From Candidatus Aenigmatarchaeota archaeon (GTDB lineage: Archaea > Aenigmatarchaeota > Aenigmatarchaeia > JACPZZ01): a stretch of 12,668 nt of DNA. The DNA is taken from assembly GCA_043801595.1 (NCBI GenBank), contig JAZDLW010000008.1, positions 1 through 12,668 of the forward strand. The letters are read 5' to 3'. The notes beneath the pieces were generated by a model, which saw only the letters and a list, made by a program, of their open reading frames with translations, ran no database searches and was not told the DNA's origin. Positions 2,090-12,523 of this stretch are shown one piece after another. The translations under genes and the position numbers were made by a program. Positions within the stretch are counted from its first letter, which is position 1. Every line of letters starts with the position of its first letter.

Positions 2090-2125
2090 TAGCGGGGGCT
2101 GGATTTGAACCAGCGGCCTCCGGGT

Positions 2126-2269
2126 CTCCCCTTATCTTCCAAATCCTAAAATGAGTTTCACAGAGTGAAACCTATCTAAGTTTTTGGAGATACAAGTCCT
2201 TTTTTCTATGTAGGAAACTTTGGTTTCCTACACGCGAAAATCCTTTGATTTTCGCTGAAAAGGACTTGT
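2126..2269 (-). other. tRNA intron 2 (144 nt) at canonical position 37/38
   Basis: Lies between ...CUCAUA and ACCCGG... (junction ambiguous by up to 2 nt). The 3' bulge is AG|A, preceded by GGGG opposite C32-U33-C34-A35 (relaxed BHB). Highly base-paired. Confidence 0.88.
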
Positions 2270-2298
2270 TATGAGCCCGACGAGCACTCCAGGCTGCT

Positions 2299-2328
2299 TT
2301 AGGGAACTTGAAGAATGTCTTCAGGTTA
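2299..2328 (-). other. tRNA intron 1 (30 nt) at non-canonical position 10/11
   Basis: UAACCUGAAGACAUUCUUCAAGUUCCCUAA must be removed to restore the D-stem GAGC/GCUC. It contains the hairpin AACCUGAAGA-CAU-UCUUCAAGUU, and its CCCU pairs with exon G4-G7. Confidence 0.85.
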
Positions 2329-2389
2329 CTACCCCGCTATGGAGTTAAGCTGTCGTTTTGCTTTCCTTGAAATATTGTCTGTATCTATG

Positions 2390-2397
2390 AATTTAAA
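2390..2397 (-). promoter_or_regulatory. Candidate TATA box for the tRNA-iMet gene
   Basis: TTTAAATT on the - strand. Usual archaeal spacing puts the TSS near 2366, giving a leader of about 28 nt. Confidence 0.4.
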
Positions 2398-2454
2398 GGT
2401 TAAAAGTATGCCAGATTCATTTTATCTTAAGCAAATCAATTGGTTTTGGTTAAA

Positions 2455-3135
2455 ATGTTGACTTTGGGTATTGATGAAGCGGGCCGTGGAGCTGTACTAG
2501 GTTCCTTGGTAATCTGCGGCGCTGTTTTCGAAGAGAGCGATTTGCCGAGTTTGAAACTGATCAACGTTAAAGATTCCAAGTTGTTATCGCCTTTGCAGCG
2601 AAGGACATTGAAACCGCAGATCGAGAAGATCGCAAAGATGGTCATGATAGAGAAACTCGAAGCTCATGAAATAGACGAAAAGCGCGCGGCTGGGACGAAC
2701 TTAAACATGCTCGAGACCTTGAAGTTCGTAAGCATAATCAATGCAGTTTTCAAGAAGATGGATATAGGAAAGGTTGTAATCGACGTTCCGGATACAAACC
2801 TGAAAAAATACAACCGCATGCTTTCCGGCCTGATCAAGCGCGATGATCTTAAAATCGTCGGCGAACACCACGCAGACCTCAATCACGTGGAGTGTTCCGC
2901 AGCTTCGGTCATCGCAAAAGTGACGCGCGATGCGGAAATAGAGGAATTAAAAAAGGATTATGGCGATTTTGGCGCAGGCTATCCGTCAGATCCGAAATGT
3001 ATCAACTGGCTCAAGGAAAGGTTAAAGGCGGATGGATCGCTTCCGAAGATTGTCAGGCATTCATGGGAGACTGTGGCGAAATTGAACAAAAAGAAATCGC
3101 AGACAACTTTCAGTAAATTTACGGGTGTCAGGTAA
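2455..3135 (+). CDS. rnhB: Ribonuclease HII
   Basis: GIDEAGRG, VKDSKLL, HHAD, SAASVIAKVTRD and GAGYPSDP motifs. C-terminal PCNA-interacting PIP box QTTFSKF. ATG at 2455 (MLTLGIDE) is preferred over the TTG at 2440. Confidence 0.96.
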   Translation: MLTLGIDEAGRGAVLGSLVICGAVFEESDLPSLKLINVKDSKLLSPLQRRTLKPQIEKIAKMVMIEKLEAHEIDEKRAAGTNLNMLETLKFVSIINAVFKKMDIGKVVIDVPDTNLKKYNRMLSGLIKRDDLKIVGEHHADLNHVECSAASVIAKVTRDAEIEELKKDYGDFGAGYPSDPKCINWLKERLKADGSLPKIVRHSWETVAKLNKKKSQTTFSKFTGVR

Positions 3136-3986
3136 TGGTTAACATAGTCGGAAAAATCGCGGGATTTTTTGGCTTGATGCGTCTTTTCAACTGCATTATT
3201 GCAGCGGTCACGATTCCAGTCATAGTATTTGCTCTCACGGGTGTAACGGGAGTGGCAAGCGCAGATGTTTTTATCGGAACAATCGTCGTCTTCATGGTTT
3301 GCGGCGCCGGCAATGCGCTTAACGACTATTTCGATGTAAGGGCGGATAGGGTAAACAAGCCGAACCGCCCGATTCCGTCGCGCACCATAAGCAGGAACGA
3401 AGCACTGGTTTTCGCAGCGGTTTTATTCCTGTCTGCGGTTTTTCTCTCAACAATCGTTTCGAAATCAGGGTTCGCATTTGTCGTAATCTTATCCTCAGCA
3501 TTGTTGGTAATATACGATGCGTACTCCAAGAAAGCTGGAGTCGTAGGAAATGTCACTGTATCCTTTCTTGTGGCAATGGTCGTTGTATCGGGCGGCATAA
3601 TCGCCGGTTCGATAATGCTTTCATTGTACGTTGCGTTGCCTGTGTTCCTGATAAATCTTTCGCGCGAGCTTGTGAAGTCGGTCGAGGATATGAAAGGCGA
3701 TTCAAAACTTGCTAAAAACACGTTCCCGTTAAAGCACGGTATTGAAAAAACCTCAAGGTTCGCATCAGGATTCGCAGCAGCAGGTTCCATATTCCTGCTT
3801 AATCTTTACGCTCACTTCGGAATGATTTTTCTTGTTTTGCTCCTTCCCGCATTGTGGAAATTTTCAAGCGCCATGTTAATGCGTGATAAAGTGACGCTTG
3901 CAAAGGCTTCGAAAATTTCCAAAGACCTGAAAATGGGAAGCGTGCTGGTATTGGTTGCGTTAATTGTAGCAAGCCTGCTGAAATAA
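3135..3986 (+). CDS. UbiA-family prenyltransferase, probable digeranylgeranylglyceryl phosphate (DGGGP) synthase
   Basis: Multi-pass membrane protein with GNALNDYFDVRADRVNKPNRPIPS, YxxYSKK...GN and RELVKSVEDMKGD motifs. TAATG overlap with rnhB. A GGGPS gene is nearby. Confidence 0.88.
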   Translation: MVNIVGKIAGFFGLMRLFNCIIAAVTIPVIVFALTGVTGVASADVFIGTIVVFMVCGAGNALNDYFDVRADRVNKPNRPIPSRTISRNEALVFAAVLFLSAVFLSTIVSKSGFAFVVILSSALLVIYDAYSKKAGVVGNVTVSFLVAMVVVSGGIIAGSIMLSLYVALPVFLINLSRELVKSVEDMKGDSKLAKNTFPLKHGIEKTSRFASGFAAAGSIFLLNLYAHFGMIFLVLLLPALWKFSSAMLMRDKVTLAKASKISKDLKMGSVLVLVALIVASLLK

Positions 3987-3991
3987 AATTT

Positions 3992-4258
3992 CTATCTGCG
4001 GTATATGTTGTCATGATGGCCGAAATCCTCCAGAATAACTGTTTTATTTTGTTCATCGATAGAATATACGAGCACAAAATGTTTGTCTATGTGGACTCTC
4101 CTTAAGCCACTCATAATATTGCTGAGTGGCTTAAACCTGTACGGGTTTTCCAGAATTTCTTCCAATTTTCTGGAAATTATACCTAGCTGCTTTGGGTTCT
4201 TCTTCGCCAGCTTTTTGAACAGTTCGTCGATTTTAGGCCTGTTGCTGACAATATACAT
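3992..4258 (-). CDS. Type II TA toxin, RelE/ParE (YafQ-like) mRNA interferase
   Basis: 88 aa, basic; ILENPYRFKPL...LRRVHIDKHFVLVYSI...DFGHHDNIY matches the archaeal RelE/YafQ-like pattern. Confidence 0.85.
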   Translation of the reverse strand: MYIVSNRPKIDELFKKLAKKNPKQLGIISRKLEEILENPYRFKPLSNIMSGLRRVHIDKHFVLVYSIDEQNKTVILEDFGHHDNIYRR

Positions 4259-4259
4259 T

Positions 4260-4502
4260 TTATTCTAGCCCGTATCTTTTGCGAAAATCTTCAACGCTTC
4301 CTATCTTAACCGCTTTTTGTTTTTGGATCTTGCGCAGCTTTTTAATGTAATCCGGCCTTACGTCCTCGTCCATTACAAATTCCTCGAATTTATCGACGAC
4401 TTTTTCTATGGCTTGTGATTTATCCTTCAGGTCGTATTCCGCCTTTACCAGATTCAAAACCCTGTTTGTCCTTTCTTTTATGTCCACTATCGCTTTTACC
4501 AT
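4260..4502 (-). CDS. Antitoxin, DUF2683-like (ribbon-helix-helix type N-terminus)
   Basis: MVKAIVDIKERTNRVLNLVKAEYDLKDKSQAIE...VRPDYIKKL...SVEDFRKRYG. Ends 1 nt upstream of the toxin ATG. Confidence 0.8.
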   Translation of the reverse strand: MVKAIVDIKERTNRVLNLVKAEYDLKDKSQAIEKVVDKFEEFVMDEDVRPDYIKKLRKIQKQKAVKIGSVEDFRKRYGLE

Positions 4503-4543
4503 GTTAATATCACATTAATATGGTGTTAATACACATTATTAAA
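4502..4543. promoter_or_regulatory. Promoter/operator of TA module 1
   Basis: TTAATA at 4504, 4515 and 4526 (11-bp period); near-direct repeat TGTTAATA(T)CACATTA; TATA-like TTTAATAA on - at 4536-4543. Confidence 0.55.
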
Positions 4544-4613
4544 GTTAATGGCGGCTGTTTTTTTCATTGATGATCGGTTGCTGGTCTATTAAAAAATCAA
4601 GTCTTCGTTCCGG

Positions 4614-5378
4614 TTAGACCTTTTCCTTTCCGGCTTTTTTGACAGCGGCGACCATTGATTTCATTTTATTTTCGGCATCGCCAGCCTCCAATGCTGTTCC
4701 GACATGTATTCCGTCCGCGCCCGCTTTTATTACCGAGTATGCCTGTTCGGCAGTACGAACGCCGCCAGCATAGAAATAAGGGATTGTTAAAACGCTTTTC
4801 ACAGCGGCTATTAACTCTAACGGTGCGTGTTCCGGAGCTCCGGAACCGGAATCGGTGATGACGAGTCTCGAACCCATGTACTCTGCGGCAATCGCAGTTG
4901 CAGCCGCTAAATCCGGTCGTTTGCGCGGAACCAGGTTCGCATTGCTTATCCAACCTACAGTCATTCCGGGTTCGAGAATAATGTAGCCGGTTGGAATTGA
5001 TTCCAAACCCGCTTTCTTCGCCTCAACCCCGCCCATGATCTGGACTGTCGAATTCCAGTACGTATCCCTCGAATTTACCAGTGTCATGAAATAAACAGCG
5101 TCGGCGTATTTGCTGTACGTGAAAACGTTCCCCGGAAACAGGACTATCGGTATCGAAGAATTTTCTTTTAACGTCTTTACCAGTTCATCCAGCGACTGGC
5201 CTTGTGCGCCTATTGATCCGCCGACAAGAAGGATGTCAACGCCAGTTTCATCAGCAGCTTTTGCAATTTTGTCGGGCTTGTCGATTATTCCTTTTGCAGG
5301 ATCCAGCAAGCTCAGTAACAGGCCGCCTTCCTTTTCTATCTTGTCATTTATGTAATTTTCAACTTTGCCCGGCTTCAT
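4614..5378 (-). CDS. Geranylgeranylglyceryl phosphate (GGGP) synthase, PcrB/GGGPS family
   Basis: LLDP, LVGGS, LFPG, ADAVYFMTLVNSRD, TGYIILEPG, SGSGA, GGVR and GADGIHVGT follow the group II GGGPS TIM-barrel motif order. Confidence 0.92.
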   Translation of the reverse strand: MKPGKVENYINDKIEKEGGLLLSLLDPAKGIIDKPDKIAKAADETGVDILLVGGSIGAQGQSLDELVKTLKENSSIPIVLFPGNVFTYSKYADAVYFMTLVNSRDTYWNSTVQIMGGVEAKKAGLESIPTGYIILEPGMTVGWISNANLVPRKRPDLAAATAIAAEYMGSRLVITDSGSGAPEHAPLELIAAVKSVLTIPYFYAGGVRTAEQAYSVIKAGADGIHVGTALEAGDAENKMKSMVAAVKKAGKEKV

Positions 5379-7718: not shown

Positions 7719-8504
7719 TTATGAGAAATGTTCTACGTAATTTTTGAAGCCTTTCTTGCCGTCAGGTTCGATTTCATCCGCTGCCTTGCCGAATCTTCTT
7801 TTTAGCGCGGAATAATGCGGGTGGTTTGTAATGTCGTTGAATGCCTCAAAGTGCGGCATTGTTACAAACACGTTGCCTTTTGTATTGCATACTCCTGCAA
7901 TGCCGTCAACCGAACCATTGGGATTTTCTGGGAATTTTGTCGCAATATCGCCTTGTTCGTCAACGTACCGTATCGCTATCTGGCCGTTTCTGTGTAGTCT
8001 TTGACGTACTGTATCATTCGCAACAACGAATTTTCCTTCTCCGTGCCGCACAGGCAGATAGATATCCTCCATTCCTCTCGTGAATACGCACTGCGAATCT
8101 TTATTCGCCTTCAGCCGCACCCAACCGTTGTAGAAAAATCCGGAGTCGTTGTATGTGAGCGTTACATCGCGTTTGCCGTTTTCGTTAAGGACGCCCGCCT
8201 TCAAAAGTATCTGGAAGCCGTTGCAAGTTCCGTAAGTCATGGTATCGCGCTCGAAAAATTCCTGCAGCTCGTTCCATACTTTTTTTAGTCGTTGTGACGT
8301 CGCTACGCCTGCGCCAAGGTCATCACCATCAGCAAAACCTCCGCACAACGCGAGTATCTTGTAATCCTTCAGGTTCAAATCATTGTCCAGCAACTCGTAA
8401 AGCGATGCTATTCTCGTATTCGCCCCTGCCACGCGCAGCGAATAATCTATCTCTTTTTCCGTGTTTAGTCCGTTTCCCGTGATGATCAAGCTGTTCGGTC
8501 GCAT
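7719..8504 (-). CDS. purQ: FGAM synthase glutaminase subunit PurQ (long form, 261 aa)
   Basis: GNGLN, GGFADGDDLGAG, GTCNGFQ (catalytic Cys), HGEGKF, NPNGS, MPHFE (His-x-Glu). ATG at 8504 overlaps the purL TGA (TGATG). Confidence 0.93.
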   Translation of the reverse strand: MRPNSLIITGNGLNTEKEIDYSLRVAGANTRIASLYELLDNDLNLKDYKILALCGGFADGDDLGAGVATSQRLKKVWNELQEFFERDTMTYGTCNGFQILLKAGVLNENGKRDVTLTYNDSGFFYNGWVRLKANKDSQCVFTRGMEDIYLPVRHGEGKFVVANDTVRQRLHRNGQIAIRYVDEQGDIATKFPENPNGSVDGIAGVCNTKGNVFVTMPHFEAFNDITNHPHYSALKRRFGKAADEIEPDGKKGFKNYVEHFS

Positions 8505-11500
8505 CAGTTCCACCCGAATGTTTTCTGCCATGAGTCCTTTAGCTTATACACATTGCCTGATAGCGCATCCTTGTTGTTGAATCCGCGTACGCGGAAACTG
8601 TCATCTTTCGCAACATAACCTATTGCCGCATACGACGTTCCGTTCATCGCAGCTTCAAATTCAGTTCTCTTTGTCGGATCGACTGTAACAACGAACCTGC
8701 TCGCCGATTCTGAGAACAGCGCCTTGTATTCTTTGTCAACACCTTTTCTCGGCAGCGCCGAGAGATCAAGTTCCATTCCGTACCCGCCCGCGAACGCGGT
8801 TTCCGCAAGCGCAACAGCCAGCCCGCCCTGCGACACGTCGTGTATTGATGCAGCCAATCCTTTTTTCGTTGCCTCGCTCAATGATTTGTACAATTTTTTC
8901 GCAGTCATCGCGTCGACAACCGGTACGCTGTCGCCGATCGCGTTGTGCATTGCGTAGAATTCGGAACCGCCCATCTCGTCTTTGGTAATGCCGAGAACGT
9001 ATACAATATCGCCCGGCGCTTTGGCTTCCATTGAAACGTAATTCCTAACATCATTCATCTTTGCCATTGCTGACATTGTTAACGTTGGTAACCCTGATAC
9101 GGTTTTCCTTGACCCGTTCTTGTCAGTGTATGTCGTATCTATGGTCATGCTGTCTTTTCCGGAAACACACGGCGCTTCGTACACTGTGCAATAGTCTTTA
9201 AGCGCAATGTTCGCACGCACAAGCTGCGCCATTTTTTGTTTATCCTTTAATGGCGACGGCCAGCAAAAATTATCGTTGAATACGATGCGGTCCATATCGC
9301 CTCCGACAGCAATGACGCCTCTTATCGCTTCGTCAATTGCATTGGCAGCCATGTGGTACGTGTCGATTTGTCCATACAGCGGGTTAATTCCGTGCGATAA
9401 TATTATGCCTTCGCGCGAATCAAGGAACGGCCTTATTACCGCAGCATCTGCCGGGCCGTCGTTTTTCGCTCCTACGAACGGCTTTCCGACGCTGCCGCCT
9501 TGAACCTCGTGGTCGAATTTACGCACAAGTTTCTCCTTGCTTGCAATATTCGGTCTCGCTAATATTCTAGTCAATTCCATAGTAAGGTCGCAGTTATCGC
9601 CTATCAAAGGATCGTCATTATGGATTATCCTGTTCCATTCTGCGTCAAGTTCCATTCTCGGAACGCCTTCGTGCAGGAATTCCATGTCAAGATGTGCGAT
9701 AACCTTGTCGCCGTGTTTTACATGGAATTTTCCGCTGTCAGTGAACTTGCCTACAACAATCGATTCGACCCTGTATTTCTTTGAAAGTTCGATGAATTCT
9801 TCGAGTTTTTCCGGCTTTACGGCAACGCTCATTCTTTCCTGCGATTCCGATATCAAAATTTCCCACGGCTGCATTCCTTGGTATTTCAGCGGAACTTTGT
9901 CGAGGTATATTTCACATCCTCCTGAAAGTTGCGCCATCTCGCCCAGCGACGATGACAAGCCGCCTGCGCCGTTGTCGGTTATCGCCTCGTACAAACCGCG
10001 GTTGCGCGCCTCTATCAGGAAATCGTACGCTCTTTTCTGGACAATGGGGTCGCCTATTTGCACAGCAGACGACGGCGACGCTTCGTGAAGCCCAGCAGAA
10101 GAAAATGTTGCGCCGTGTATGCCGTCTTTTCCAACCCGCCCGCCGACCATTATTGCAAGGTAGCCTGGCTCAACAATCTTTTCATGCGTTGCGCGTCCGT
10201 TTATTTCAGCAGGCATCATTCCTACCGAACCGCAGAACACAAGTGGTTTTCCGAAAAAGCTGTCGTGGAAAAATACCGAGCCGTTTACAGTAGGGATGCC
10301 GGTTTTGTTTCCTGCGTGCTCGATTCCCTTGAAAACGCCTTTTCGTATGCGGTTTGGGTGCAATATTGTAGATGGAATATAACCGTCGTAATTCGGATCG
10401 CCGAAACATAACACATCTGTGGAAGCGATTATTTCCGCCCCCATCCCTGCGCCGATTATGTCGCGGTGGCAGCCGTTTACTCCGGTAATTGCTCCGCCGT
10501 ACGGATCTTTTGCGCTAGGGCTGTTGTGCGTTTCAATCTTAAGCAGCATGTTGTACATGCCATTGAACTTTACGATTCCCGCATTGTCCTTGAAAACAGA
10601 AACGAGAACGTTTTTCCACTTTTCATTTTGCGATATTTCCTCAGTCGAGCCTTTTATGTAGGTTTTGAACAGGCTGTCTATGACAAACGATTCTCCTGTT
10701 TCTTTGTCTGTGTATCTTACCAGTGCATTGAATATTTTGTGTTTGCAATGCTCGCTCCACGTTTGTGCGATCGCCTCCAACTCGACATCAGTTGGTTTGC
10801 TTGACAATTCCAATGATGCCCGCTCCGCGACAAAGTCGGCTCTCCTGTATTCGTTGGAAATTTTATGCATTTCTTCGAGATTCAGTGAGAGCACACGCTT
10901 CTCACTTATTGTCATCAGTTGTTTGTCATCTACATCCAGGTCGATATAATCAACATTGATTTCATTGCTAGTCGTTACCCGTGGCACCTTACGTAGAAGT
11001 TTTTTGCCTCCCCATCCCCGGTAATTGTAAACATTCGCATCCTCGATAAGGGTGTTGGCCATTATTGTGGTCGCGGCTGTTTTCATATCTTTCGTAGTTG
11101 CGCCGGTAACGAAGAATTGTCTTGATGTGTAAGCCCTTTCGTCTTCGCCCAGTTCTCTGTCCAGAATTATGCCTGCGATTTCTTTGGCTGTGCGGCCTTC
11201 CGGATCGGAGACGCCGGGCTTTCTCGATATTTCCACCATCAGGCCCGCGTGCTCCTTTAAACTGATGCGTAACGTGTCCAGTAAACGGTGCATAAAACCA
11301 TTTTTTCCGTGCTCGCCAAGGTCTATTTGTTTGTCAACCAAGGAAAATTCTGTGACAGGATCCGTCAACTCTTCCTGCAGTTTTTTTATCTCTTCTTCGG
11401 AAATCGAAGCATCGAACGTGATCTTGCGCACGCTTCGGACTTTTTTTACATTTATTCCCGCGTCTTTCAGGTCGCGTTCTAGGGATTTGCCAGCTGCGTC

Positions 11501-11560
11501 CAAGAACTCGGGGTTTGTTGCAATCTGCAACGTTCGCGGTCTTTTTCTGGTAGAAACCAT
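8504..11560 (-). CDS. purL: FGAM synthase subunit PurL with fused N-terminal PurS-like region (~1018 aa)
   Basis: QTWSEHCKHKIF, DNAG, KIETHNSPS, DGIHGATFSS, DNGAGGL, SESQERM, DHEVQG, DNFCWP, SGKDS, HDVSQGGL, FSES. N-terminal LTDPVTE and PGVSDPEG segments. ATG at 11560 avoids overlap with the divergent gene. Confidence 0.95.
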   Translation of the reverse strand: MVSTRKRPRTLQIATNPEFLDAAGKSLERDLKDAGINVKKVRSVRKITFDASISEEEIKKLQEELTDPVTEFSLVDKQIDLGEHGKNGFMHRLLDTLRISLKEHAGLMVEISRKPGVSDPEGRTAKEIAGIILDRELGEDERAYTSRQFFVTGATTKDMKTAATTIMANTLIEDANVYNYRGWGGKKLLRKVPRVTTSNEINVDYIDLDVDDKQLMTISEKRVLSLNLEEMHKISNEYRRADFVAERASLELSSKPTDVELEAIAQTWSEHCKHKIFNALVRYTDKETGESFVIDSLFKTYIKGSTEEISQNEKWKNVLVSVFKDNAGIVKFNGMYNMLLKIETHNSPSAKDPYGGAITGVNGCHRDIIGAGMGAEIIASTDVLCFGDPNYDGYIPSTILHPNRIRKGVFKGIEHAGNKTGIPTVNGSVFFHDSFFGKPLVFCGSVGMMPAEINGRATHEKIVEPGYLAIMVGGRVGKDGIHGATFSSAGLHEASPSSAVQIGDPIVQKRAYDFLIEARNRGLYEAITDNGAGGLSSSLGEMAQLSGGCEIYLDKVPLKYQGMQPWEILISESQERMSVAVKPEKLEEFIELSKKYRVESIVVGKFTDSGKFHVKHGDKVIAHLDMEFLHEGVPRMELDAEWNRIIHNDDPLIGDNCDLTMELTRILARPNIASKEKLVRKFDHEVQGGSVGKPFVGAKNDGPADAAVIRPFLDSREGIILSHGINPLYGQIDTYHMAANAIDEAIRGVIAVGGDMDRIVFNDNFCWPSPLKDKQKMAQLVRANIALKDYCTVYEAPCVSGKDSMTIDTTYTDKNGSRKTVSGLPTLTMSAMAKMNDVRNYVSMEAKAPGDIVYVLGITKDEMGGSEFYAMHNAIGDSVPVVDAMTAKKLYKSLSEATKKGLAASIHDVSQGGLAVALAETAFAGGYGMELDLSALPRKGVDKEYKALFSESASRFVVTVDPTKRTEFEAAMNGTSYAAIGYVAKDDSFRVRGFNNKDALSGNVYKLKDSWQKTFGWN

Positions 11561-11611
11561 GGAAGAACACTTAGAATACTCTGGTAAATTATTTAAGCTC
11601 GGATTAATCCG

Positions 11612-12523
11612 GTGCGTATTAAACTTTATCCGCCGAACTATTATGCGATAAGCTTGCCGTTGTTGTTGGATGGGGCTGACTGGATTTACGATCCGGATGC
11701 GCACGATACGCCGATGCGTGTAGCGTGCCTCATGTCAGGAACCGGAACTAATGTGGTAAAAGTAATAGAACACCAGTACAAAACATATCGCGAAACAAGG
11801 CCTGACAGGCTTCCTTATGAAGTCGCAGTGATTTTTACCGATAATAAGAATAGCAGCGCTCGGCGGATCGCGGAAAAATTCGATGTCGCGTATGAATGCG
11901 AAGACATCAATGATTTTTACAGGAACATGGGTCATTCCAACAAACGCGACCTTTCCAAGAGGCCGGTCTATTTCGAACGCGTTGTCAAAAAGCTGGAGCA
12001 GTATAAGCCGGAACTTTACGTGCTCGGCGGCTTTATGAGCGTTGTGACAGAACCCCTGTTGTCAATGTGTCACGGTGTTAACGTCCATCCTGCTGATCTG
12101 GCTATAACTGAGAACAACAGGAGAAAATATACGGGTAGTAATGCGGTGTTGGACCAGATACTTGCCGGAGAAAAAACATTGCGCTCAAGCACGCACATTG
12201 TCAGGGAAAAGTTTGATTGGGGAGAGATTTTAATGGTGTCGGAAGGTGTATCCGTCGATATCGAGCGCGCTGCTGAGGAACTGGAAGCGAGAGGGTCGTT
12301 GAACGTCAGTTTCAATGCGATCACACTCGATTATCTCAGAAAACCGCAGCATCGCGAAACTGCGAAAAAAATAGCGGCCCGTCACCGTGACTGGTTGAAA
12401 ATAGACGGTGATTGGATTGTACTTCCCGAAACAGTTGATCGCATATCGCGCGGAATGGTGATCCTCGGAGAAAAAGGCGCGTACTTTAACTGCGTTCCGA
12501 TGCCGAACGGTTACAGGCTTTGA
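11612..12523 (+). CDS. purN: Formyltransferase, PurN-like (GAR transformylase); start codon uncertain
   Basis: MRVACLMSGTGTN phosphate loop, LGGFM, NVHPADL (catalytic Asn/His), STHIV...FDWG (catalytic Asp); lies inside a pur cluster. The true start may be a downstream TTG (~11654-11666). Confidence 0.8.
   Translation: MRIKLYPPNYYAISLPLLLDGADWIYDPDAHDTPMRVACLMSGTGTNVVKVIEHQYKTYRETRPDRLPYEVAVIFTDNKNSSARRIAEKFDVAYECEDINDFYRNMGHSNKRDLSKRPVYFERVVKKLEQYKPELYVLGGFMSVVTEPLLSMCHGVNVHPADLAITENNRRKYTGSNAVLDQILAGEKTLRSSTHIVREKFDWGEILMVSEGVSVDIERAAEELEARGSLNVSFNAITLDYLRKPQHRETAKKIAARHRDWLKIDGDWIVLPETVDRISRGMVILGEKGAYFNCVPMPNGYRL

What the first reader, a model, noticed from the sequence alone, without database searches (positions are those of the whole stretch)
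2299..2328. Intron at position 10/11 of the initiator tRNA whose splice motif borrows the acceptor stem
Seen: exon 1 is only 10 nt. The splice motif forms as G2-C13 and C3-G12, then a 3-nt bulge AA|A, then a 4-bp helix of G4G5G6G7 with intron CCCU, then a 4-nt bulge UAG|U, then the intron hairpin. Cutting before the last nt of each bulge gives exactly the required mature sequence. This fold is mutually exclusive with the acceptor stem and D-stem. Established: archaeal EndA cuts BHB motifs, and relaxed motifs at non-canonical sites need broad-specificity endonucleases ((alpha-beta)2 or epsilon2 types). Inference: 10/11 is not a position I recall among the common non-canonical sites, and splicing would have to precede cloverleaf folding.
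Basis: partly seen in the sequence, partly recalled or inferred. Interest (0 to 1): 0.85.

Follow-up and report, generated by a model that had tools for sequence, protein, structure and literature searches.

The report
Leader-assisted intron in initiator tRNA
The only gene found for the start-codon tRNA of a tiny uncultured archaeon is interrupted after its tenth base by a real 30-base intron that recurs in many related microbes, and the RNA just in front of these genes nearly always folds back onto the tRNA, probably to hold the cutting site open until the intron is removed.

Summary
Confirmed. The minus-strand tRNA-iMet (2338-2090), the only copy found in this DPANN (Aenigmatarchaeota-like) assembly, has a 30-nt intron at 10/11 and a 144-nt intron at 37/38. 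Only a cut after nt 10 matches intronless relatives. The position is not unique: 19 of 371 genomes of the class (8 families) and other DPANN records have it. 64 of 69 distinct insertions form a 4-bp central helix plus an intron stem (shuffles 0.6%), in two slipped registers, with compensatory changes. It pairs with the D-loop in 26 of 29 insertion-bearing genes against 4 of 97 genes without the insertion, and in 33 of 36 in a second set. It probably props up the weak outer helix before the acceptor stem forms. The genome's only EndA looks like an alpha4 type with the L3 loop, not (alpha-beta)2 or epsilon2, and lacks the usual catalytic lysine. No RNA data. I found neither 10/11 nor the leader helper in the papers I could read, but key catalogues were out of reach. 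This scan had already noted antisense leaders at 4/5 and 8/9, and the lysine-less EndA, on other DNA.

The parts
2390..2397 (-). TATA-like element about 52-59 nt upstream of tRNA nt 1; would give a 5' leader of roughly 30 nt
   Evidence: Seen in the sequence; also present in congener G002. Promoter role and start site are inferred from recalled archaeal promoter geometry, not tested.
2340..2351 (-). Antisense leader: -7 to -2 (2345-2340) pairs with D-loop 17a-21; -13 to -11 (2351-2349) can pair with 22-24
   Evidence: Folds; duplex -10.2 kcal/mol; association across relatives
2329..2338 (-). Exon 1, tRNA nt 1-10; nt 4-7 (2335-2332) are the 5' strand of the central helix, nt 2-3 of the outer helix
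   Evidence: identical to the start of intronless relatives
2299..2328 (-). Intron A at 10/11, 30 nt: hairpin 2327-2305, central-helix strand 2304-2301, last two nt in the 3-nt bulge
   Evidence: homologous introns in G002, G003, G004, G006
2270..2298 (-). Exon 2, nt 11-37; D-loop target of the leader at 2291-2286; anticodon CAT at 2273-2271
2126..2269 (-). Intron B at the canonical 37/38 site, 144 nt, several hairpins; only 3 of 4 central pairs; part of it is a repeat found elsewhere in the genus
2090..2125 (-). Exon 3, nt 38-73; A1-U72 pair of an initiator tRNA; CCA not encoded
   Evidence: the A1:U72 initiator feature is as described in the tRNAscan-SE 2.0 passage for eukaryotes and recalled for archaea

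Best explanation
A working initiator tRNA gene with an enzyme-spliced (BHB-type) intron at 10/11, helped by its own 5' leader. (1) Shown in sequence: with a 10-nt exon 1 the splice motif has to be built from the acceptor stem's 5' strand. Five exon nt (4-8) lie between the outer helix and the cut, and only four fit the central helix, so the motif is always relaxed. Either nt 4-7 pair and the 5' bulge has 4 nt (this gene), or nt 5-8 pair and the spare nt opens the 3' site (most relatives). (2) Shown comparatively: the tRNA gives only a 2-bp outer helix, and the leader extends it by pairing with the D-loop. (3) Inferred: this fold forms while the RNA is being made, before the 3' acceptor strand appears some 200 nt later. 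(4) Inferred: the single-unit EndA (probably an alpha4 tetramer with L3 loop) cuts both bulges and RtcB joins the exons. (5) Inferred: the acceptor stem and D-stem then displace the leader and RNase P removes it, so splicing at 10/11 comes before 5'-end maturation.
For: Unique junction and sole copy. 27 of 28 distinct insertions in the first set and 37 of 41 new ones in the metagenome set have 4 of 4 central pairs plus an intron stem of 3 bp or more; null 0.56%. The search patterns did not constrain the intron sequence. Compensatory changes: position 5 G-C to A-U (register A 2+1 sequences, register B 1), position 7 G-C to A-U (3), position 8 U-G or U-A. Leader:D-arm duplex at or below -10 kcal/mol in 26 of 29 against 4 of 97, shuffled leaders 6.4%; 33 of 36 in the second set. 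Genes with other introns only: 2 of 55; leader against nt 38-51: 2 of 22. Five genera hold both states, and in each the intron-bearing gene has the paired leader and the intronless one does not. In 25 full-length genes the median probability of the central helix is 0.00004 without and 0.35 with the leader. EndA, RtcB and an RNase P RNA-like match are present.
Against: No RNA evidence of expression or splicing. In this gene the leader duplex is among the weakest (-10.2), and 3 of 38 other tRNA genes of the same genome reach -10 too. It does not rescue the motif in the full-length RNA (0.01 or less) and changes little in the shortest transcript (0.83 against 0.80); it helps only at intermediate lengths (0.83-0.85 against 0.44; 0.03-0.14 against 0.01). 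Two intronless congeners keep a paired leader. Relatives are not independent, so the counts overstate. The EndA has Ala at the catalytic Lys position, so its activity is unproven. The RNase P match is below the Rfam cut-off. The start site, and so whether the leader is transcribed, is inferred.
Confidence: 0.75

Rival explanations
1. The intron is real and spliced, but the leader pairing does not aid splicing. It came first, or is a trace of the insertion event, and only made this site open to intron gain.
For: Intronless G001 and G005 have paired leaders. The nascent motif folds without the leader in many genes (median 0.60). The leader is weak in this gene.
Against: G000 is the deepest branch of its genus and has the intron, and intronless G005 is sister to intron-bearing G002 (support 100), which points to loss with the leader left behind. 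Pairing is kept with unrelated leader and intron sequences across 8 families. A D-loop change U17a to A is matched in the leader in one gene that passes the cut-off.
Confidence: 0.12
2. The leader is mainly a checkpoint: it blocks D-arm folding and RNase P cleavage until the intron is out, and it is not needed to form the splice motif.
For: The leader covers the D-loop and the D-stem 3' strand. RNase P recognises the folded T and D elbow (recalled). It fits the weak energetic effect in this gene.
Against: The leader helix lies next to the outer helix in a narrow register, and it raises the central-helix probability strongly in many full-length genes. An unspliced RNA could not form a normal D-arm anyway.
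Confidence: 0.08
3. A pseudogene or assembly artefact; the working initiator tRNA lies in the unassembled part of the genome.
For: The assembly is 86% complete; no RNA has been seen.
Against: Exons are identical to intact genes of relatives. The locus is next to aspS in 7 of 8 relatives checked (same contig). 64 distinct insertions keep the motif, with compensatory changes. Independent DNA contigs carry it.
Confidence: 0.03
4. The cut is not at 10/11 but one or two nt away (7/8 to 9/10 or 11/12).
For: Neighbouring cuts still score as tRNA-Met (110.8-115.8). Two pattern hits (L085, L315) are better read as 7/8 introns.
Against: Every other cut leaves at least one mismatch to the intronless junction and scores lower. 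The central helix sits at intron nt L-5 to L-2 in 64 of 69 cases when 10/11 is assumed.
Confidence: 0.02

Closest known systems
Non-canonical BHB introns of archaeal tRNA genes (hBH and HBh' motifs; Thermoproteales, ARMAN-2, Asgard), as reviewed in PMC4090602 and described in PMC3239211 and bioRxiv 10.64898/2026.10.13.758758
   Same: Short intron; 4-bp exon-intron central helix at intron L-5 to L-2; intron stem; cut before the last nt of each bulge; several introns per gene; EndA and RtcB in the genome.
   Different: 10/11 is not among the positions named in the passages read (20/21 to 59/60 'etc.', and 3/4). The helix is borrowed from the acceptor stem, exists as two slipped registers, and its outer helix is extended by the 5' leader.
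Split and permuted tRNAs (Nanoarchaeum equitans, Caldivirga, Thermofilum pendens iMet, Cyanidioschyzon merolae; PMC3218864, PMC3978253, PMC4033280)
   Same: Sequences outside the mature tRNA pair up to present a BHB motif.
   Different: There, leader and trailer pair with each other and form the intron-side helix that is cut away. Here the gene is collinear and cis-spliced, and the true 5' leader pairs with exon sequence (D-loop) on the exon side.
alpha4-type EndA with L3 loop in DPANN (Kaneta et al. 2018, PMC5829648); M. jannaschii EndA (PDB 1A79); N. equitans alpha subunit (PDB 3IEY chain A)
   Same: Single 201-aa unit; best match 1A79; the loop between catalytic Tyr and His aligns without gaps to 3IEY_A and is 6 residues longer than in 1A79; C-terminal assembly strand retained.
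   Different: Ala at the column of ARMAN-2 K282. None of 56 single-unit enzymes of the class has Lys there, and all 56 have an invariant Lys in the L3 loop.

Membership tests
Archaeal tRNA-iMet | CAT anticodon, A1-U72, cloverleaf after splicing, identity with iMet of relatives | tested here: met
   (ARAGORN 117.9). The isotype-specific model of tRNAscan-SE was not available.
BHB-type tRNA intron | Removal restores the conserved mature sequence at one position | tested here: met
   1 of 15 slid cuts matches
BHB-type tRNA intron | 4-bp central helix with at least one flanking helix | tested here: met
   64 of 69 distinct insertions
Strict hBHBh' (3-4-3) motif | Two 3-nt bulges | tested here: not met
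   The 5' bulge has 4 nt here; in register B the 3' site is a 1x3 loop
Relaxed hBH motif | Strict 3' bulge with outer helix, enlarged 5' bulge or loop | tested here: met
   relaxed motifs with 1-4 nt bulges per PMC3239211 passage
BHB-type tRNA intron | Excised by EndA and ligated in vivo | not testable with these tools
   No RNA holder listed; only DNA contigs laid
(alpha-beta)2 or epsilon2 EndA system | Separate beta subunit gene or three-unit protein | tested here: not met
   One single-unit hit in G000 and in 6 of 6 congeners; unfiltered HMM searches of all G000 frames found no second homologue, next E = 1.1. The assembly is 86% complete and a very diverged beta could be missed.
alpha4 EndA with L3 loop | Single unit with catalytic and assembly elements plus L3 insert | tested here: met
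   by sequence alignment only; tetramer formation not tested
alpha4 EndA with L3 loop | Catalytic Tyr-His-Lys triad | tested here: not met
   Tyr131 and His147 present, Ala178 at the Lys column
Split or permuted tRNA | Halves on separate loci or in swapped order | tested here: not met
   Three exons in order within 249 nt

The most novel reading that the evidence does not exclude
DPANN archaea have a distinct, unreported tRNA maturation route. Introns close to the tRNA 5' end persist only where the 5' leader has co-evolved into a cis-acting chaperone (antisense to the D-loop, or a decoy copy of the 5' end) that keeps the precursor out of the cloverleaf. This forces splicing before RNase P cleavage on the tRNA needed to start every protein, and the cutting is done by a homotetrameric EndA whose catalytic lysine has moved into the L3 loop.
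Probability: 0.5. Interest if true: 0.8.

Novelty: new variant of a known kind. Interest (0 to 1): 0.62.

Why it matters
It shows how a tRNA can tolerate an intron where the splice signal and the acceptor stem compete for the same bases, and it gives tRNA 5' leaders, usually treated as disposable, a structural job with a fixed order of processing. The 64 natural variants, with intronless relatives as controls, make this directly testable with short RNAs and one small enzyme. It also challenges the rule that alpha4 enzymes need strict motifs and a triad lysine. Practically, ARAGORN and Rfam miss this gene, so some 'missing' tRNAs in DPANN genomes may be of this kind.

Tried and rejected
Expression: no RNA holder listed; only DNA contigs could be laid, and uncovered parts say nothing. 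ARAGORN at a lowered threshold gave mostly noise. The sigma-70 promoter and terminator scan found nothing and does not fit archaea. A 17-nt match of intron A on contig C24 lies inside a 338-codon reading frame with no tRNA context and is taken as chance, not intron transposition. Register B for this gene (nt 5-8) leaves a U-C mismatch and has probability 0.02 or less. Pattern hits not counted as 10/11 motifs: L085 and L315 (7/8 reading fits better), L323 and L283 (an upstream copy of the tRNA 5' end misleads the pattern), L281 (3 of 4 pairs). G274 (L155) was dropped from the leader count because another insertion broke the script's pattern; L271 has no upstream DNA. Published catalogues could not be checked: the tRNAscan-SE 2.0 supplement gave no text, PMC3239211 has none here, Supplementary Data 4 of PMC11291895 lay beyond the part held, bioRxiv supplements are closed, figures are not held, and the paper search cannot match a slash. 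No structure or complex was predicted for EndA. No phylum-wide genome count was obtained.

Full report
1. The observation. The feature lies on the minus strand between the RNase HII gene (2440-3135) and a 331-codon ORF. ARAGORN and Rfam find no tRNA in the window. By inspection there are three exons (2338-2329, 2298-2270, 2125-2090) and two insertions, 30 nt after nt 10 and 144 nt after nt 37. Removing both gives a 75-nt tRNA-Met(CAT), ARAGORN score 117.9; with the first insertion left in, ARAGORN finds nothing. Of 15 slid excisions only the cut after nt 10 matches the junction seen in intronless relatives such as G008, G023 and G040. Exon 1, exon 2 and exon 3 motifs each occur once in the 814-kb assembly, and the spliced junction not at all. 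The assembly is 86% complete.

2. The organism. Small genome, archaeal genes; the intron sequences of its congeners recur in records titled Candidatus Aenigmatarchaeota, so I infer that lineage. The genome has many other non-canonical tRNA introns, so its endonuclease must be tolerant.

3. The position recurs. 19 of 371 genomes of the class match a strict pattern for an insertion of 12-42 nt at 10/11, in 13 of 170 genera and 8 families. In a search that captured both states, 17 of 118 iMet 5' ends had it (115 of 371 genomes gave a match, the rest were not recovered by this pattern). A scan of the species-level genome collection gave 27 records, titled Aenigmatarchaeota, Woesearchaeota, Pacearchaeota, Parvarchaeota, Nanoarchaeia, Nanoarchaeota or unnamed archaea. 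A metagenome scan gave 55 more loci, 41 of them new distinct sequences. In the genus, G000, G002, G003, G004 and G006 have homologous 30-nt introns; G001 and G005 lack it precisely.

4. The motif is under selection and comes in two registers. The patterns left the insertion free, yet 27 of 28 distinct insertions of the first set and 37 of 41 of the second pair intron nt L-5 to L-2 fully with exon 1 and close an intron stem of 3 bp or more from nt 2. Shuffled introns do so in 0.56%. Register A (exon nt 4-7; 7 + 18 sequences, this gene included) has a strict 3' bulge and a 4-nt 5' bulge. Register B (nt 5-8; 20 + 19) has a normal 3-nt 5' bulge and an opened 3' site. No sequence satisfies both. 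The reason follows from the tRNA: G2-C13 and C3-G12 fix the outer helix and leave one spare exon nt. Position 7 covaries in register B (3 A-U against 17 G-C).

5. The leader. The fold pairs -7 to -2 with the D-loop. I scored the 16 nt before each gene against nt 14-25. At or below -10 kcal/mol: 26 of 29 insertion-bearing genes (one of the 29, L085, is not a 10/11 intron) against 4 of 97 genes without it; medians -14.1 and -3.7; shuffled leaders 6.4%. With a 45-nt window, 27 of 29 against 8 of 96; the main exception, G184, has an 11-nt perfect complement further upstream. In the second set 33 of 36 scorable motif-forming genes pass, 35 of 36 with 45 nt. The pairing is specific: 2 of 55 genes with only other introns pass, and 2 of 22 leaders pair as well with nt 38-51. 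Five genera hold both states and agree (g55, g60, g82, g120, g130; -12 to -22 against 0 to -5). Two do not: in g1 the intronless G001 and G005 keep the leader, and in g89 one intronless gene scores -13.6. One (g129) could not be scored. A tree of AspRS, EndA and RtcB puts G000 outside the other six congeners (support 100) and G005 next to G002 (100), so the intronless pair most simply lost the intron; the other nodes are weak (38-63), and the locus looks mosaic. Relatives are not independent and no tree-corrected test was run.

6. Folding order. In 25 full-length genes the median probability of the central helix is 0.00004 without and 0.35 with the leader; in the nascent 5' part it is 0.60 and 0.87. 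For this gene the picture is weaker: 0.83-0.85 with and 0.44 without the leader when only the 3' acceptor strand is missing, 0.03-0.14 and 0.01 at the end of intron B, 0.01 or less at full length. Three of 38 other tRNA genes of G000 also reach -10 (one was scored on the wrong segment). So here the motif is a kinetic, co-transcriptional fold, and the case for the leader rests on the comparison, not on this gene alone. These are equilibrium calculations without protein.

7. The enzyme. One EndA gene, 201 aa, best match M. jannaschii alpha4 (1A79). It has a 6-residue insert between the catalytic Tyr and His that aligns without gaps to the N. equitans alpha subunit, and it keeps the C-terminal assembly strand. 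G000 and its six congeners each show one single-unit hit; other genomes with the intron have an extra three-unit-sized gene. Unfiltered profile searches found no second homologue in G000. Counting from the alignment to ARMAN-2 (Y236, H251, R275, K282 per PMC12397907), G000 has Y131, H147, R171 and A178. None of 56 single-unit enzymes has Lys at that column (53 Ala, 2 Ser, 1 Thr), and all 56 have Lys142 in the loop (these were the best-scoring loci, not all hits). That the loop lysine takes over is a hypothesis. RtcB is present, and an RNase P RNA-like match below the cut-off.

8. Literature. Ten searches gave no paper naming a 10/11 intron or a 5' leader paired with the D-loop to build a splice motif. 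What I saw: passages of PMC4090602 (positions 20/21 to 59/60 'etc.' and 3/4; its Figure 2A was not visible), PMC3218864, 10.1101/614032, PMC12397907, PMC3978253, PMC4033280, PMC3239211, PMC11291895, 10.64898/2026.05.13.725050, PMC6379350, PMC3293823; passages, one section and a supplement search of PMC5829648; abstract, two thirds of the results and passages of 10.64898/2026.10.13.758758, which finds many missed D-arm insertions in Asgard and does not contain the word leader. Marck and Grosjean 2003 and Sugahara 2007-2009 I did not read. Supplements and figures that I could not see may well list 10/11, so I put the novelty of the position at about even odds and that of the leader helper higher.

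9. Earlier notes of this scan. I recorded the leader pairing before seeing that other agents had reported antisense leaders for introns at 4/5 and 8/9 in other genomes, and the lysine change before seeing four notes on it. They are unchecked AI notes and not independent support. What this report adds is the 10/11 site, its two registers, and a controlled, repeated comparison with intronless genes.

10. Verdict. A real, lineage-wide relaxed-BHB intron (about 0.95). Leader assistance is likely (about 0.75) but not shown by experiment. New variant of a known kind; interest 0.62.

Noticed in passing
G000:C10:2180-2322: A second tRNA-Ser(CGA) gene with a 22-nt intron at 8/9 (strict motif), a second insertion near 30/31, and an exact copy of its first 8 nt 23 nt upstream. 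The copy pairs with the 3' acceptor strand and lifts the central-helix probability from 0.01 to 0.99: a decoy leader, a second way to solve the same problem.
   Followed up: partly
L001:1195-1800 (G000:C13): The only EndA has Ala at the catalytic Lys column; 0 of 56 single-unit enzymes of the class have Lys there, and 56 of 56 have an invariant Lys in the L3 loop.
   Followed up: partly
L085 and L315: iMet genes whose insertion fits best at 7/8, with exon nt 2-5 fully paired to the intron end (read by eye).
   Followed up: no
window 2126-2269: The canonical intron has only 3 of 4 central pairs, varies widely in length among congeners, and carries a hairpin module that recurs many times in congener genomes and in other tRNA introns of G000.
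   Followed up: partly
L135, L136, L055, L283, L323: Spare copies of the iMet 5' end upstream of the gene (L135, L136, L283, L323). L135, L136 and L055 carry an insertion near nt 65; in L055 the leader can also pair with the 3' trailer.
   Followed up: no
L002, L004, L006, L011, L017, L019, L047, L155: iMet genes of the class carry introns at many other places (D-loop, anticodon stem, variable loop, T-loop), up to five per gene.
   Followed up: no
window 2339-2400 against L016: G000 and G002 share a near-identical intron and about 60 nt of upstream DNA although their AspRS is only 76% identical and they are not sisters; the locus looks mosaic across the genus.
   Followed up: no
G184, G250, G251, G252, G274, G275, G277: These genomes hold both a single-unit EndA and a second, mostly about 400-aa, EndA gene.
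   Followed up: no
L239, L240: The rtcB matches of G005 and G004 contain in-frame stops (1 TAA; 3 TGA), perhaps an mRNA intron or a frameshift.
   Followed up: no
L046, L056, L068, L077, L083, L084: Several iMet genes have C instead of U at position 33 (L056, L068, L077, L083, L084; L046 has the usual U), and in L056 and L068 the 3' half was not found within the region read, so they may be split or carry a very long intron.
   Followed up: no
window 2440-5378 and 7719-12523: Ordinary neighbours: RNase HII, both archaeal lipid prenyltransferases, AspRS; two small RelE-like toxin-antitoxin-type pairs and purine-synthesis-like ORFs (read by eye, not tested).
   Followed up: no
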